A stretch of DNA of 64,000 nt, from NCBI GenBank assembly GCA_038227875.1, contig JBBRPR010000002.1, positions 192,001 through 256,000 on the forward strand. The letters run 5' to 3'. Shown one piece after another: positions 20,135-26,100 of this stretch. Source of the stretch: Planctomycetota bacterium (GTDB lineage Bacteria; Planctomycetota; SZUA-567; H5-PLA8). Each line of letters opens with the position of its first letter. Positions within the stretch are counted from its first letter, which is position 1. The position numbers are program-made.

Positions 20135-23100
20135 TGTCAGTTCAATGCTCATTTGGATTTCTGTTTTTCTGCGTTTAATGAAACGCGCCCGGCCAACAGC
20201 CGGGCGCAACGGAAAACATTAACTCTACCCGAAGACCCACCGGAATGCCATAGCGCGTCTTGCGATTGCGTCCTCTCCCCCTGTGCGAATCACAAAGAAG
20301 AACTAGTGTCCCCCTCGTTTGAAGTCTGCGCCCATCGGCAGATGTCGTCCATGCAGCTTGCACTCAAGAGAGGGTGCCACTTCGTCTCGCCGTTGAGACC
20401 CGTGCGAGAGAGACCGGGGTGAGGGGATCTGCGTGGATCGTCAAAAGGCCCACTGCGTTTGCAATTTGGACCCCTGACGTACGTCTTGCAATCCAACCGC
20501 TGGAGTGTGCCACTGGTGGCTCGACCACCAGTGTCGACTTCACGAAGGAGGCTGCCAGTTCGATGCGCTCCGATCACGCGACTTCTCTCCTTTGGTGGAG
20601 AGAAGGGAAGCCGAGCGATTTTGAGTCCCGGCGTCAGACCGTCCGCCCCAACCGGGGCAAAATCTGAAAGCCAGGGGCAACGCCCCTGGAATTGACACCC
20701 GTGATTTTCAAAAGCTCTGAAAGAGCGAAATGCCGCCACCGATCCGCGAAACAGGACGATGTCTAATAAGGGTTGCGCCCCAGTCTGGAGCACCGCGCCA
20801 AACCAACCCGCACGGCCCCCGCCCGCCAACCATCGCTCTCGTCTTGCTCCGGAAGTTGGGTGCCATGCGTCTGAGGCCGTTTTCAGACGCATGCGTCGCG
20901 AATTGCACTTTAAGCGCGACTGTGGTCACGCCAGTATACAAATTTGAGTCAATAGTATTGCATGACTACATTGAAGCCGTCTTTAGGATTTCCCATTACA
21001 TAGAGCCTTCCAGAGTCCCCGAACATCCATCCAGCTTGATCGTTGGAAGGTATTTGAACAACCAAGGCCTCTTCGCTCTCCACATTTTGAATCCAATTCG
21101 CCCAGCCACCAAGCTTCAAGCCAGGCGACGGTTCCGCTCCCCAAATACAGGTTTCGTTTCTCACAGGCGCTTGCGGTAGTCGCGCGTCAAATTCCAAGTG
21201 CAGTAAGTCCCGCAGTTCGGACCATATTGGTAATTCGTCATGGATTACCGGCTTCAAAGTTAGCCTGCGTCGAGATTGGCTTGGTTCGGGTGCTCGGCCG
21301 GTCTGTTCACAAAACTGTTCGAGGCCGTCCGCAATATTTAACAATTGTACGATCGGACGTGTCGCGGAGTGTTGTTCCCACCAATCGTCACTCCAGAAAA
21401 TGGTCAGCAGCGATCCCGGCGGCGCGTCAAATGGAGCGGCACCGGCGGCCACGGCAGGATCAAGCGGGAGCTGCGCGACAAATCGAAGTCGCACATCGTC
21501 GCTGCACGGCCATTCGAAACCTATGGGAAGCCATGGCAATTTTCCCCATGCGCCTTCGGTGGGTGAAGGTGGGTCTGTAGTCCATACTGGTTCAAATATG
21601 CACGCTTTTCGCCTGCACGATTGGACCGCTAAGTTGATTTCCTGCTCCGCGTCCTTTGTGCTGCCACCTGGTGCCGAAGGCGCTGGGACTAACTTGTATT
21701 TCTCTTCAAGACACGACTCGCCACTCTCAAGCTGGACCAATTCCGCGGGTGGTAATTCTTCCGTCCGCCGGAGCGACCCGCTTCCGCCAACGAGCAGTCC
21801 TCGCGGTGTTTCAAAGTGCGCCGTTTCGGCGTTTACCACCGACCGGGCTAGAGACGATAAAATCTCGCTTTCGCCCGCGTCGAGCCACGACGGACGCGGA
21901 TTGTACGGAACGACGCGCACGTTGCTCCGACAAAGTTCTTCTGCTTCACCACAGGCCGCCTCGGTAAGCGGCCGGTGAATGACGACCGCCTGCGGAATTG
22001 CCTTCTGTACTTCCAGTGTATGAAATGCCAGCGGCGGCAAGCTTACGACATCGCCTTCGCACGGGCGCGGTAACAACGCGACGAAGCCAGACGCCTTTTC
22101 GGCGGTGATCAGCAAAGGCCTGCCGGGCGGTGCTTTCAACTTGGTGAGGATTCTGGAGGGAATCAGCGCTGTTCGTTCTTCAATTCGCTCCGACATGACG
22201 ACTGCAGATCGCGCGCTAAAATCGACACGCTTTTCCTGCCAATCATTTCCTGCATGCCCGCACAGAAGACGGCTTATATCGACCAGTCGTCGTCCCTCAC
22301 TGAGCTGCATGGTTTTTTCGCTGAGCAACGAGTTTGCAAACAATCCGTCGCATACCAACTGCAATTCACGCTGTTCATTGATCAGAATGACCTGTGGTGC
22401 TTTGAGCTCAATCAATTTCTTCAGGCGATTGTTGCGATTGATGACAATTCGGTAGAGCTCATTCAAGTCGGAGGTCGCCCAATTGCCGCTCTGAAGTTGT
22501 ACCAGCGGTCGAAAGTCGGGTGGAATCACCAGCACATGTTGTTGAATGATGCCGAGCAGCCCCTTGCGGACCCCGAGATCTACGCCCTCAAGCAAAGCAC
22601 GAATCGCAACTGCCCCGATTCCCAAATCTTGAATACCAACGCCGGTAACAGGGTTCTTCGCATCTGCAAATTCGAACGCTCCTGATTGCGTGCGAATCAC
22701 CCGCTGTTTGCATTGCACTACATTTTCGATGTCGGCTTTCGAAAATTTCAAGGGCGCCAGAAGTTCTTCAAGAACGGAGGGTGTATCCATGCGCCAGAAG
22801 AATGGCACAATCGGTTGAGCGAGCGCAATATGGCCGAATCGATTGCGTCGCGCGCCGCGCTCAGGCCCAAATATACGTTCACAAAACAATGCGTCTGGAG
22901 TTGGTTTGAGTGTGGCATAGTTGAGCGTTTCCGGCCGCCAAACTTCGCCCGATGAACGCGCCAGCAATTCGTCCCGAGTCGCGACTCGAACCGTGACTTC
23001 CACGTGATCGCCGTCGCGCTCCAGCGAGGGGTATAGGCCCATGCCCCACAGGTACACTTCCACCTGCCTCAGACTCTCAGGCATTCCTGCTTCGGGAAAT

Positions 23101-26100
23101 CCTACATTGCTGCGATAGGCCCCGCGTAAGAGTTTGCGGCTACTCATATCATCGCATTTCAAGCTAGTGAATTCGGTCACGTTGGCCATCATTCCGCGCT
23201 CGCGCAGCCAGCGGATTTGGCTCACTGACACTTCAAGTCCACCACTGCGCGACTTGCCGCCCAATGGTCGGCAACTGATCAATGAATATGGGCCGATTCC
23301 CCGTGCATGCAAGAATTCACTCGCCGTGGTTTCGGCTTTGCCAATCGCCAGGCGTCGGACCTCACCTGCTTTCAGGCCGGCAAGTCGTGTTCCCAGTGCG
23401 TCAAGTTCAATGTCAACGCCGTCACCGAGCGATACGTCAACGCGAGACACAATGCCCAATTCTGATTCACCCCAGATCAGGACATCGCCAGGATTGATTT
23501 CGCGCTCCAGAACGAGACGAACTTTCACTTTGCCGCGAATCTTCGCCGAAGTAGTGCGCGGAAGATCGCGGCGCGAGAGCACCTCCACGGTGTCAATCTT
23601 GGAGCCGTTTGATCCGGGAGGAGCTTCCAGACTATCGCTGCATACCCGCTGCATGCCTGACGGAACCTTATCCTCTCCCTTGAGGGCGTGGCGGACGTAT
23701 ACCACGCTGGCGAGCACGTCGCCTTCATTGACGAGTGCGCCCTGCGGCATACAGCCCCGGTCATCCAGTTTTGCAAGCTGCGCGGCGGTGAGAAAAGGAT
23801 TGTCCTTTGCCAGACGATGAAATCCATATTCCGTCTTCGCCAGCTCCACTTCGCAATCAAACTCATGCTTGGACGCAAAAATTCGGGCGTCAGTGATATG
23901 CGGCGACAGATGAATTCCCGTTCCTGCGGCTCGCGTCGATCCACGAACATTCAAGTAGGGGCAACCATTCAGAGAGTTGTTTGACAAGTTTACTAAGCTG
24001 GCGATTCGCATAGAGCCCTCTTCGCGCAATAGTCCCATCGTGCGTTGAAGATGGGCTAGTCGATATTGACTTGCTACGCTGTTGTCGCCCACTTTTAGCT
24101 TAAAATTATGAACTCGCAACCCCGCAGCGTTCGCGAAGTCTCTCAGGCCGACTGAAGTGTGTCGATCCTACTTCAGACCATAGGCAAGCCCCGACACGCG
24201 CCCCCGTACCTTTCTGCACATCATGTATTATAAAATCTTTTTTACTAAAAGTACAGAAAACACTTGACTTTTGCGTTTCTCGACCGCTTATATACTATAG
24301 AGAAATATGAAAATCGTCCGTTACGGCCTCGCTTCGCTACCTGCACATAAAGCCCCGGCCACCTAATCTTGGGCCTGCCCTCAAACGCGTTCCAGCGGCT
24401 CCTGAGCGCCTCCACAGTCCAAACCCGAATCCAATGGCCACCCGCACGCGGAATGCTCCACAGCCCCGAGAAACGCGAGGAAACGGCTGCCACCTAGTGC
24501 ATCTACTGAGAATCCAGTATTATAAAATCTTTTTAACTAAATTCAAAGAAAACACTTGACTTTTGGGTTCGAGAGTTGCTTTATATTATAGGAAAATATG
24601 CGATGCCCCGTCTCATGCCAAACCGCGCTCTCTTTACGTATTGGCGCCCTTGGTGCCATGTGATCGCAGCACCGACCAAGCCTCGCTCTACCACCACAAC
24701 CCTACTCAATGTGCACCCAGGAAGGAGACCCCAACCCTGTAACATTTGGTAACATTCTGTAACAGTGCACGGAGAATATCCCATCACGCCAAATCACAAT
24801 TCCGCACGCGCCGGTGCCCAACTAATCCGCAATCCGCAATCCGCAATGCAGTTAATCCCCGTCCGCGTATAATCGAAAGCCTCTGCGAGGAGAATCTATG
24901 CGCCCGTTTGCCCTTCTACTGCTGAGTCTACTCTCCCTGTCCCCGGCCTGGTCAGCGGACACCGAACCCAACACGCCTGAAGTTGCCGCAAAAGTCGCCG
25001 AGGCGGCGAAACAACTTCCAGAACAGTACACCAATCGCCCGCTGCTTTTCCTGCCGATGCTCGACGCCCCGAAACAATTGAAGGGCGATCTCTCCGATCC
25101 GATCTGGGAGAAGGCCACGCCGTTCAATCTGCAGAGCATGGTCAAAGGCGAACTGGTGCCGCCGAAGTTCGTGACCGCGGCGCGGATGTTCTGCACCAGC
25201 GACGCCATCTACCTCGGTGTGAAGTGTGAAGACCCCGACCCCGCCAACGCCACCGTCAGCAATCCGGCCGCGTGGCAGAACGACTCACTGGAATTCTTCC
25301 TCTTCCCCGGCGAGAGCTGCAAAGGCGGGAAGCTTTACTACCAGATCTGCGTGGATGCCTCGAAGAAGATCGAGTTCTACCACACGCACCTCTACCCGAA
25401 GAATACGTTCGGCGGCCGCAGCGAACCGTGGAAGCCGGCGGGGGTCGAATGTGAAATCACCAAGGACGCCAAAAGCTGGACGCTCGAATTGAAGATCAAG
25501 TATTCCGACATGGTGCTGCCTGATGAAGTGAAAGAGAAGCGCGCGATCTGGCGCATGGACCTCTTCCGCAACCGCGTCGCGCGCGGCAACATTTCCGCGC
25601 AGAGCATGGCCTGGGCGCCGACGGACGCGACCGGCAGCTACCATCTCTGCGGACGCTACGGCTACCTGCTTCCCGCCGCGCTGGTGAGCACCGACGTGAT
25701 CGGCACGGTGCTGGCCAACGCCAAGGGCGCCACGACGACCGACACGCCGCCGGCGCAGGAACTCTCGCGCGAAGTCACCGAACTGATCGGGCGGCTGGGC
25801 AACGACGACTACAATGTCCGCAACACCGCGATGCTCAACCTCAACACGATGGTCGAAGAGAAGAAGCTCGGCCGCTTCATCCAGACGCAGTTAAAGAAAA
25901 CACTCTCGGAAACGGAGGACTCGGAAGTAAAAATGCGCTCGATCAAGGTCTTGAAGACCTGCTATTCGTGGCTCAATCCCGACGACGACACGCCGCCGGT
26001 CAACAACAACGACTGGCAGGCCAAAGAATAGTCCGGTTTAAGACTTGAGTGCGTCGGCGCCGATCCCCACGGCGCCCATCAGCGCCGCGTAATCTCCCAA

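What a model noticed while it worked through the whole genome (the two positions that open the first line are those of the whole stretch)
20949..24011. Catalytically dead single-chain mini RNA polymerase: beta flap + beta-prime clamp fused, with a YwqG/TYPP domain
g00439 (1020 aa) joins the C-terminal part of RNA polymerase beta (flap, switch) to the N-terminal clamp of beta-prime in one chain, followed by a DUF1963/TYPP domain. The NADFDGD metal site, the beta RHGNKG motif and the beta-prime zinc finger are gone, while the sigma-binding clamp helices are the best-kept part. It belongs to an undescribed family, a candidate sigma-factor decoy; the real rpoB/rpoC are intact on C15.
Evidence so far: BLAST to own RpoB and RpoC shows the pieces and the zinc-finger deletion. 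phmmer finds over 40 other 50%-identity clusters of about 710-1050 aa covering the whole core; of 31 scanned, 20 carry DUF1963 and all carry Rpb1_1. In a 45-sequence alignment none has D-x-D-G-D, and the motif and zinc-finger losses are shared in the rows shown; invariant residues cluster at 497-529. AlphaFold pLDDT 87.5; all top Foldseek hits are beta-prime chains, E about 1e-25. Stand-alone in Planctomycetota MAG loci L048 and L049.
(Added by a program. Inside this text positions count along the whole contig: contig position 192,001 is position 1 of the stretch shown here. "Call 12" and the like, gene names such as g00115 and contig names such as C1 are that model's own, and its searches are not shown. 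The text may have been shortened before it was handed on; [...] marks where a part breaks off. The agent that wrote the report below was given it as the finding of a first reader that could run no searches.)

Follow-up and report, generated by a model that had tools for sequence, protein, structure and literature searches.

The report
Dead mini RNA polymerase decoy protein
This bacterial gene encodes a folded but enzymatically dead one-chain miniature of RNA polymerase that keeps only the surface where sigma factors and phage regulators dock; similar miniatures arose at least twice, so they probably act as decoys, although no binding partner has been shown.

Summary
Confirmed. Catalytic and template-binding residues are gone in 85 of 85 aligned relatives; the sigma-docking face is kept (median 84-96% against 0-20%, classes set post hoc). 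The gene is foreign by codon usage, absent from 40 relatives, and lies beside a dispersed repeat whose other cargoes include immunity-type binding proteins. Zinc-finger loss is subfamily-specific: 25 of 38 members of a second set keep it, five carry an alphaCTD. Trees place dead forms inside both planctomycete and myxobacterial RpoC; a single origin is rejected (AU p=0.0003), so the same module evolved convergently. Best reading: a core-mimic decoy that binds sigma factors (0.45). Rivals: bait for non-sigma phage or toxin proteins (0.22), promoter-blocking dead holoenzyme (0.12). Binding is untested; the complex predictor was unavailable. No paper found in five searches. The scan had not seen this family on other DNA; an unchecked note reports a TIR fused to a dead beta-prime fragment elsewhere.

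The parts
20949..24011 (-). Whole gene g00439, 1020 aa (P0001): dead single-chain mini RNA polymerase plus TYPP domain; GC3 0.565 against 0.77-0.83 for six native genes
23874..24011 (-). aa 1-46: first half of the beta double-psi barrel
   Evidence: model 1-331 aligns to beta chain 6j9e_C 715-1382, Z 13.4; hhalign prob 98.8 for 25-149; boundary inferred
23505..23873 (-). aa 47-169: beta flap; flap-tip helix (E. coli 898-905) deleted
   Evidence: 3tbi_B Z 14.3, rmsd 2.9, 120 aligned; gap at 898-905
23328..23504 (-). aa 170-228: second half of the beta barrel; K1065 and K1073 replaced by V177 and L185, RHGNKG lost
23019..23327 (-). aa 229-331: beta switch 3 and beta C-terminal clamp segment (E. 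coli beta 1243-1340)
22857..23018 (-). aa 332-385: beta-prime N-terminus and zipper; the zinc-binding domain is deleted right after it
22332..22523 (-). aa 497-560: lid and clamp helices (E. coli beta-prime 246-309), the most conserved part; R526=R275, E546=E295, V553=A302
22224..22331 (-). aa 561-596: degenerate rudder and switch 2 (K334, R337, R339 not kept)
21921..22229 (-). aa 595-697: beta-prime double-psi barrel without the dock; NADFDG aligned to EVQKAIP
   Evidence: hhalign prob 97.2, E 4e-11
21768..21899 (-). aa 705-748: beta-prime C-terminal clamp segment (to E. coli about 1359)
   Evidence: VIA-align: model 331-748 to beta-prime 16-1359, about 404 aligned, rmsd about 3, Z 25-27; not detected by hhalign
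20952..21656 (-). aa 786-1020: DUF1963 / YwqG / TYPP domain with the GGW..WIQ motif
   Evidence: Pfam E 1.5e-8 over cut-off; 1pv5_A Z 13.8; motif
24016..24023 (-). Shine-Dalgarno-like GAAGAGGG before the ATG
24214..24604 (.). Two copies (about 24225-24309 and 24517-24600) of a genome-wide AT-rich repeat with back-to-back sigma70-like promoters; TTGAAT-16-TATAAT at 24546..24519 faces g00439
20507..20892 (.). Cluster of REP-like palindromes downstream; 20645-20732 matches three copies around a Y1 (RAYT-type) transposase gene on C3

Best explanation
The protein is a self-folding, catalytically dead copy of the outer, sigma-docking and RNA-exit face of RNA polymerase and works as a core mimic. Shown: it folds as flap + two barrels + complete clamp; catalysis and template binding are lost; selection keeps the sigma-facing residues. 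Inferred: its clamp helices bind sigma region 2 and its lid, zipper and switch 3 take the sigma 3 region and the 3-4 linker, so a sigma70-family factor (one of the host's 139 or more, or one brought by a phage or other mobile element) is held away from real core. In this subfamily the flap tip, dock and zinc finger are deleted, so a captured sigma could not be set on a -35 element: a sink, not a holoenzyme. The TYPP domain is an optional peptide-binding add-on (20 of 47) that may pick or hold the client; that step is speculative. The patchy, mobile, fast-evolving distribution suggests a role in conflict rather than housekeeping.
For: Fold: (also matches the isolated archaeal clamp 3qqc_A, Z 19.3, over aa 287-744). 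Dead: 0 of 47 and 0 of 38 rows have DxDGD or HGxKG. Median identity to the E. coli residue, planctomycete set (47 rows) / myxobacterial-type set (25 rows): sigma face of clamp helices 91/92%, zipper+lid 91/96%, switch 3 and beta C-terminus 84/96%; catalytic 4/0%, template and hybrid contacts 9/20%, other face of the same helices 17/32%. dN/dS between L001 and L002 is 0.17 overall and 0.063 in lid+clamp helices. Two origins kept the same pieces: mixture-model tree, AU p=0.00026, and a model of myxobacterial-type P0125 aligns 332-797 to beta-prime 16-1362, Z about 31. Clamp helices are the main sigma docking site (PMC5101437, PMC12000874, PMC8321222; passages). The host has at least 139 Sigma70_r2 matches (150 of 203 candidates scored).
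Against: No binding shown. The classes were set after I saw and partly from recall, without atomic coordinates, so the p-values are descriptive and some kept residues may be structural. A302 is V in P0001 and Ala in only 30% of its subfamily; zipper R47 is Ala in P0001. The clamp helices also bind NusG/RfaH (bioRxiv 2023.06.26.546588), and zipper, lid, flap and beta C-terminus bind phage Q (PMC6606751). No sigma gene is a conserved neighbour: one ECF gene within 6-7 kb in 1 of 14 loci (L083). A general sigma sink would be toxic unless tightly controlled, yet a near-consensus promoter faces the gene. 4 of 14 related loci are broken (L002 stop; L084, L172, L189 split).
Confidence: 0.45

Rival explanations
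1. Immunity bait: it soaks up non-sigma foreign proteins that attack or hijack RNA polymerase at the clamp, flap or RNA exit channel (phage antiterminators, inhibitors, co-activators, or toxins of competing bacteria).
For: The retained set (dock, zinc finger, zipper, lid, flap, beta C-terminus) is the set phage Q binds (PMC6606751); phage K resistance maps to E. coli-equivalent G36, G89 and A287 (PMC11598898); solved flap complexes with T4 gp33 and P23-45 gp39 match the model. Foreign codon usage, 0 of 40 relatives, interchangeable tails (TYPP, alphaCTD, amidase). In L001 the divergent neighbour is Ank+SUFU with the same low GC3 (0.46 vs 0.47). Genes beside the same repeat include SUFU, Ank, HEAT x2, WD40, FGE-sulfatase x6, DUF2262, ARPP-1 among 52 ORFs scanned.
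Against: Baits in arms races are expected to diversify at the bound surface; here it is the most constrained part. PADLOC gave one weak ankyrin match among 30 proteins. No effector domain is fused in 85 aligned proteins. The flap tip, a main phage target, is deleted in this subfamily.
Confidence: 0.22
2. Dead holoenzyme repressor: sigma plus mini-core binds promoters of that sigma and blocks them without transcribing; alphaCTD fusions add UP-element binding.
For: The second set keeps zinc finger (25 of 38), flap tip (18 of 38), dock (24 of 38), and five proteins carry alphaCTD (P0091, P0106, P0112, P0125, L189), three of the four inspected with the SVR/SIR motif. Zipper Y46/R47, which contact spacer DNA (PMC5101437), are kept at 74-84%. 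Clamp-helix binding raises sigma-2 affinity for -10 single-stranded DNA (PMC12000874).
Against: This protein lacks flap tip, dock, zinc finger and alphaCTD, and R47 is Ala; the beta lobe and downstream DNA contacts are absent. More plausible for the myxobacterial lineage than for g00439.
Confidence: 0.12
3. Sink for NusG/RfaH-type elongation factors.
For: NGN domains contact the clamp helices; L282, I291, R278 are kept at 89-100%; the isolated archaeal clamp binds Spt4/5 (entry title of 3qqc).
Against: The beta lobe and protrusion, the other NGN contacts, are absent; conserved lid, zipper and switch 3 would not be needed.
Confidence: 0.07
4. Sponge for switch-region antibiotics (myxopyronin, corallopyronin, ripostatin, fidaxomicin).
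For: These drugs bind switch 2 and several are made by myxobacteria (PMC5101437 table); one lineage is myxobacterial; K345 is kept at 84-85%.
Against: Switch 2 itself is degenerate (K334 4/0%, Q335 0/4%, R337 9%/gap, R339 gap/4%); conservation peaks far from the pocket.
Confidence: 0.04
5. Decaying duplicate or assembly chimera without function.
For: 4 of 14 related loci are broken; all known carriers are MAGs or metagenome contigs; no expression data.
Against: The same deletions are shared by dozens of clusters at 25-60% identity, dN/dS 0.17, compact confident fold, mid-contig position in a 304-kb contig.
Confidence: 0.03

Closest known systems
Bacterial RNA polymerase beta and beta-prime (RpoB, RpoC; TIGR02013, TIGR02386)
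   Same: Fold of flap, both double-psi barrels and the whole clamp; 33% identity to the host's RpoC over 329-643; Z 27.
   Different: One chain of 750 aa instead of about 2650; no catalytic aspartates, lobe, protrusion, bridge helix, trigger loop, jaw; TIGR02386 score 169 against cut-off 963.
Naturally fused beta/beta-prime (NF007172, NF011417; Helicobacter and Wolbachia by recall)
   Same: Beta C-terminus joined to beta-prime N-terminus in gene order.
   Different: Those are full-length, active and replace rpoB/rpoC; this is a reduced dead extra copy beside intact genes (scores 163 and 130 against cut-offs 5372 and 4632).
Engineered isolated clamp (PDB 3qqc chain A, archaeal clamp bound to Spt4/5) and beta-prime fragments 260-309 and 1-314 used in vitro
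   Same: aa 287-744 match 3qqc_A, Z 19.3, 279 aligned, in the same order; such fragments bind sigma (Arthur 2000; Young 2004: seen only as reference-list titles, content recalled).
   Different: Those are laboratory constructs; this is a natural gene family that also keeps flap and barrels.
Anti-sigma factors (Rsd, RseA, FlgM, T4 AsiA) and 6S RNA (recalled)
   Same: Proposed outcome: sigma kept from productive use.
   Different: They are unrelated small proteins, or an RNA that mimics promoter DNA; none is derived from the core enzyme.
Single-subunit two-barrel polymerases (P23-45 gp96, QDE-1, crAss phi14:2; YonO recalled)
   Same: Both barrels in one chain; weak structural matches Z 6.6-10.2.
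   Different: They are active and remote; this protein descends recently from cellular rpoBC and is dead.
YwqG / TYPP domain proteins (PF09234; PMC4275035)
   Same: Domain present, Z 13.8 to 1pv5; described as a protein-interaction module fused to Ank, BRCT, C-type lectin, WGR, LRR.
   Different: Section 9 of that paper lists no fusion to RNA polymerase parts; its supplement was not read.

Membership tests
Multisubunit / two-barrel RNA polymerase (active) | Two double-psi beta barrels | tested here: met
   hhalign; structure matches over 1-331 and 330-746
Multisubunit / two-barrel RNA polymerase (active) | DxDGD metal-binding loop in the beta-prime barrel | tested here: not met
   Absent in P0001, 0 of 47 and 0 of 38 relatives
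Multisubunit / two-barrel RNA polymerase (active) | Two conserved lysines of the beta barrel (K1065, K1073) | tested here: not met
   V177 and L185 in P0001; 0% in 47 rows
Multisubunit / two-barrel RNA polymerase (active) | Bridge helix and trigger loop | tested here: not met
   No match to beta-prime between about 490 and 1315; only about 50 residues follow the barrel before the linker
Fused beta/beta-prime subunit (NF007172, NF011417) | Full length about 2850 aa, score over the curated cut-off | tested here: not met
YwqG / TYPP (PF09234) | Pfam score over cut-off, YwqG fold, GG..Q motif of the second repeat | tested here: met
   35.7 bits against 23; 1pv5 Z 13.8; motif. Holds for the C-terminal domain only
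Anti-sigma factor (functional class) | Binds a sigma factor and blocks holoenzyme formation | not testable with these tools
   Needs a binding assay; the complex predictor was not available
Anti-sigma factor (functional class) | Encoded next to its cognate sigma gene | tested here: not met
   No sigma gene among the window neighbours scanned; one ECF gene 1.3 kb away on the other strand in 1 of 14 loci
Known anti-phage defence system | Match to a PADLOC model, or defence-island neighbours | tested here: inconclusive
   No match for P0001, P0091, P0107; one weak ankyrin match among 30 proteins; library dates from 2023

The most novel reading that the evidence does not exclude
Large-genome, sigma-rich bacteria have repeatedly cut a duplicate of rpoB-rpoC down to a dead one-chain copy of the sigma-docking face, in a series of sizes (1647, about 1270, 800-950, about 750, about 220 aa). 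These form a new class of pseudo-enzyme regulators or immunity baits that act by mimicking core RNA polymerase: pure sinks in the planctomycete lineage, and promoter-blocking dead holoenzymes with their own alphaCTD in the myxobacterial lineage.
Probability: 0.5. Interest if true: 0.9.

Novelty: categorically new. Interest (0 to 1): 0.8.

Why it matters
Known controls on sigma factors use unrelated anti-sigma proteins or a DNA-mimicking RNA. A natural mimic of the core enzyme itself would be a third route, and its independent origin in two phyla shows which surfaces of RNA polymerase are worth copying. It also offers a soluble single-chain scaffold of the clamp, flap and RNA exit channel for testing sigma competition, phage takeover factors and inhibitors of the sigma-core interface, and it defines by natural deletion the smallest self-folding sigma-docking unit.

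Tried and rejected
Complex prediction with the host's primary sigma was not available; no result. No RNA holder was listed for 18300-25000; Rfam gave one sub-threshold match inside the gene. Profile scans of metagenomes and genomes were swamped by real rpoBC: 3 of 80 and 2 of 80 loci were family members. Viral contigs: two motif scans gave 0 matches, and 5 of 5 profile hits were ordinary rpoBC. No phage record matched aa 598-754; 0 of 68 plasmid-collection matches covered 80% of P0091, and the 30 listed are four-piece matches spread over 2.6-3.1 kb, as for ordinary rpoB-rpoC. ESM Atlas: best score 0.82, uninformative. hhalign did not detect the beta-prime C-terminal segment (E 0.097, wrong place); the profile match was weak (6.6 bits); only the structure alignments show it. 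The first tree (LG+G4, 93 of 100 rows; 7 dropped for a missed anchor motif) joined most dead forms in one 45-row group; I treat that as long-branch attraction because the mixture model split them (40 hand-picked rows). A reference-only profile of the planctomycete-type barrel region was not built, so the phylum-wide frequency of this subfamily was not re-measured. Myxococcota sample: 4 of 251 genomes matched, three were already in the query profile and the fourth is an active enzyme; only 18 candidates per genome were scored. No conserved gene neighbour in 14 loci; DUF4058 lies near 3 of 14. Rejected: active polymerase, split rpoBC, chimera, antibiotic sponge.
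Full report
OBSERVATION. The gene lies on the minus strand at 24011..20949 and gives 1020 aa without a stop; a ribosome-site-like GAAGAGGG precedes the ATG. Pfam finds Rpb2_6 (43-189), DUF1963 (825-1011), and Rpb1_1 (489-588). It has no DxDxD, HGxKG or CxxC. The genome's own rpoB and rpoC on C15 are intact, with RHGNKG and NADFDGD, and are the only other tblastn hits. 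The host RpoC groups with Planctomycetota sequences.

ANATOMY. AlphaFold2 on a 47-row alignment gives pLDDT 88.0, pTM 0.78. Residues 1-331 align to a beta chain (6j9e_C 715-1382, Z 13.4), 47-169 to the isolated flap (3tbi_B, Z 14.3), and 786-1020 to YwqG (1pv5, Z 13.8). Residues 331-748 align over about 404 positions to beta-prime from residue 16 to 1359 of E. coli (Z 25-27, rmsd about 3). So the chain holds both barrels, the flap, and all three clamp segments: beta C-terminus, beta-prime N-terminus and beta-prime C-terminus. The stretch 287-744 also matches an isolated archaeal clamp (3qqc_A, Z 19.3); that this entry is an engineered fusion is recalled. Deleted are the beta lobe and protrusion, flap-tip helix, zinc finger, dock, bridge helix, trigger loop and jaw. 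NADFDG aligns to EVQKAIP.

FAMILY. The best 150 phmmer hits among 1.84 billion representatives hold two sets with this layout. A1 (47 rows, the subfamily of this gene; 22 rows of 860 aa or more, 24 of 700-810 aa): 20 carry DUF1963, 0 the zinc finger; one further locus has an amidase domain instead (L005). A2 (38 rows): 25 keep the zinc finger, 18 a flap-tip motif, 24 a dock motif, 4 carry alphaCTD, and L189 is a fifth. None of the 85 has DxDGD or HGxKG. Larger dead forms exist (P0082, 1647 aa; P0107, P0118, P0150, about 1270 aa), and so does a 220-aa clamp-only protein with two homologues. No NCBIfam model is reached. Named carriers are Planctomycetota and Polyangiales MAGs; the five carriers searched are 8.3-13.7 Mb and also have an ordinary rpoC.

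SELECTION. With E. coli numbers (offset 251; E. coli sequence), R275 and E295, named as sigma-2.2 contacts in PMC8321222 (passages), are kept in 91% and 94% of A1, while K280, M283, R293, K296 and Q301 (planctomycete RpoC consensus residues, 54-100% there) fall to 6-17%. Median identity by class, A1 / 25 myxobacterial-type rows of A2 (13 rows left out as other lineages or frameshifted): sigma face 91/92, zipper+lid 91/96, switch 3 and beta C-terminus 84/96, catalytic 4/0, template and hybrid contacts 9/20, other helix face 17/32. The classes were drawn after seeing and partly from recall, and unmapped positions counted as zero, so this is description, not a blind test. Against the reading: A302 is V553 here and Ala in 30% of A1; R47 is Ala. 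Between L001 and L002 (71% identical) dN/dS is 0.17 overall, 0.063 in lid plus clamp helices, 0.145 in TYPP.

ORIGIN. On the beta-prime part, a simple model joined most dead forms (long branches flagged). The mixture model on 40 chosen rows put this subfamily with P0107, P0114 and P0127 inside planctomycete RpoC (SH-aLRT 100 and 96), seven others with proteobacterial and myxobacterial RpoC (100), and P0062 elsewhere. One clade of all 18 dead rows is rejected, p-AU 0.00026 (quick tree, no bootstrap). The lid and helix letters agree: LLDSGNF and K281 in A1 as in planctomycetes, PLDGGRF and R281 in the myxobacterial set. A model of myxobacterial-type P0125 (pLDDT 81.8) aligns 332-797 to beta-prime 16-1362, Z about 31. 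So the same cut was made at least twice; gene conversion from host rpoC is an alternative that I did not test.

CONTEXT. The gene stands alone between lepA and a CBM9 gene. GC3 is 0.565 against 0.77-0.83 for six native genes. It was found in 0 of 40 relatives at E 1e-120 (17 of them at least 90% complete). Upstream are two copies of an AT-rich repeat (48 profile hits at 33 places) with a TTGAAT-16-TATAAT site facing the gene (4 sites found, 2.3 expected in shuffles). At 18 places examined, the gene on that side has the lower GC3 in 17, one tie (sign test 1.5e-5), and the native gene on the other side is transcribed away in 18 of 18 (crude ORF calls). Of 52 ORFs beside the repeat, those with a Pfam match include SUFU, Ank, HEAT x2, WD40, FGE-sulfatase x6, DUF2262, ARPP-1 and IrrE, but also metabolic genes and an ECF sigma; about half have none. 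Downstream palindromes match copies around a Y1 transposase on C3. In 14 related loci no neighbour is conserved; L001 has an Ank+SUFU gene beside it; 4 of 14 are broken. No member was found in phage, plasmid or viral collections, and PADLOC shows no defence context.

MECHANISM. Shown: a folded dead module under purifying selection on its outer face. Established: the clamp helices are the main sigma docking site and sigma4 binds flap tip and dock (PMC5101437, PMC6606751, PMC12000874; passages). Inferred: the protein binds sigma region 2 and 3 and, lacking flap tip, dock and zinc finger, cannot place it on a -35 element, so it is a sink (0.45). The host has at least 139 sigma70-region-2 matches. 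The same surfaces bind phage Q, carry phage K resistance mutations (PMC11598898, passages) and bind RfaH (bioRxiv 2023.06.26.546588, passages), hence the rivals: bait 0.22, dead holoenzyme 0.12, NusG sink 0.07, antibiotic sponge 0.04, junk 0.03; about 0.07 is left for roles not thought of. The TYPP domain is described as a protein-interaction module (PMC4275035, section 9 and passages); its eukaryotic relative PDCD2 is a dedicated chaperone (PMC7736825, listing only). Its role here is open. Binding could not be modelled, and no RNA run was listed.

NOVELTY. Five full-text searches for such a protein listed no paper whose title or abstract start describes it; I judged these from the listings. 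The library lacks most subscription papers, and supplements of comparative RNA polymerase surveys or of PMC4275035 could list these proteins. The scan's own index has no look-alike; one unchecked note describes a TIR domain fused to a dead beta-prime fragment in another genome. It fails membership of active polymerases and fused beta/beta-prime, and is unrelated to known anti-sigma factors. Verdict: real, categorically new in architecture, function inferred; interest 0.8.

Noticed in passing
L207:6344-11725 + (G211:C41): A second, compact, fused beta/beta-prime of about 1700-1790 aa with both catalytic motifs intact (GDKLAGRHG, NADFDGD) but degenerate clamp helices, in a genome of the Myxococcota sample that also has an ordinary rpoC; a sigma70-r2 gene lies 4.5 kb downstream. 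Candidate accessory single-chain RNA polymerase.
   Followed up: partly
L205:2484-3221 + (G042:C1): Stand-alone 220-aa protein made only of the beta-prime zipper, zinc finger and clamp helices, in a genome that also carries a larger dead form; two homologues at 95% and 83% over the region searched.
   Followed up: partly
window 24214-24604 and 32 other places in the genome: Dispersed AT-rich repeat with back-to-back sigma70-like promoters; always upstream of a native gene, with a lower-GC3 gene on its other side in 17 of 18 places. Looks like a gene-capture or insertion platform, perhaps tied to the four Y1 transposases.
   Followed up: partly
window 20507-20892: Three kinds of REP-like palindrome (45, 253 and 24 core-motif matches in the genome); one kind flanks the Y1 transposase at C3:47816-48160.
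   Followed up: partly
L196:1456-2154 (G000:C15:157023-157577): A second, stand-alone DUF1963 gene in the host genome, next to a gene that reads like a magnesium-chelatase-family ATPase (label by eye).
   Followed up: no
L005:5184-8258: Family member whose tail is an Amidase_2 domain preceded by a stretch resembling a twin-arginine signal; may be a recent read-through fusion.
   Followed up: no
L001, L004, L084: DUF4058 gene within two genes of the family gene in 3 of 14 loci; may only reflect its abundance in planctomycetes.
   Followed up: no
P0107, P0118, P0150: About 1270-aa dead forms with a 400-aa N-terminal extension holding several CxxC motifs and, in P0118 and P0150, a short match to the beta N-terminus.
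   Followed up: no
ESM Atlas, row 12: Cluster of 52 proteins of about 924 aa with only PF04997, commonest taxon Bacillota; possibly another dead beta-prime family.
   Followed up: no
window 11555-18207: ArsA ATPase, sigma54 activator, ABC transporter and signal peptidase genes downstream of lepA; ROK gene and ATP synthase operon upstream; ordinary genes.
   Followed up: no
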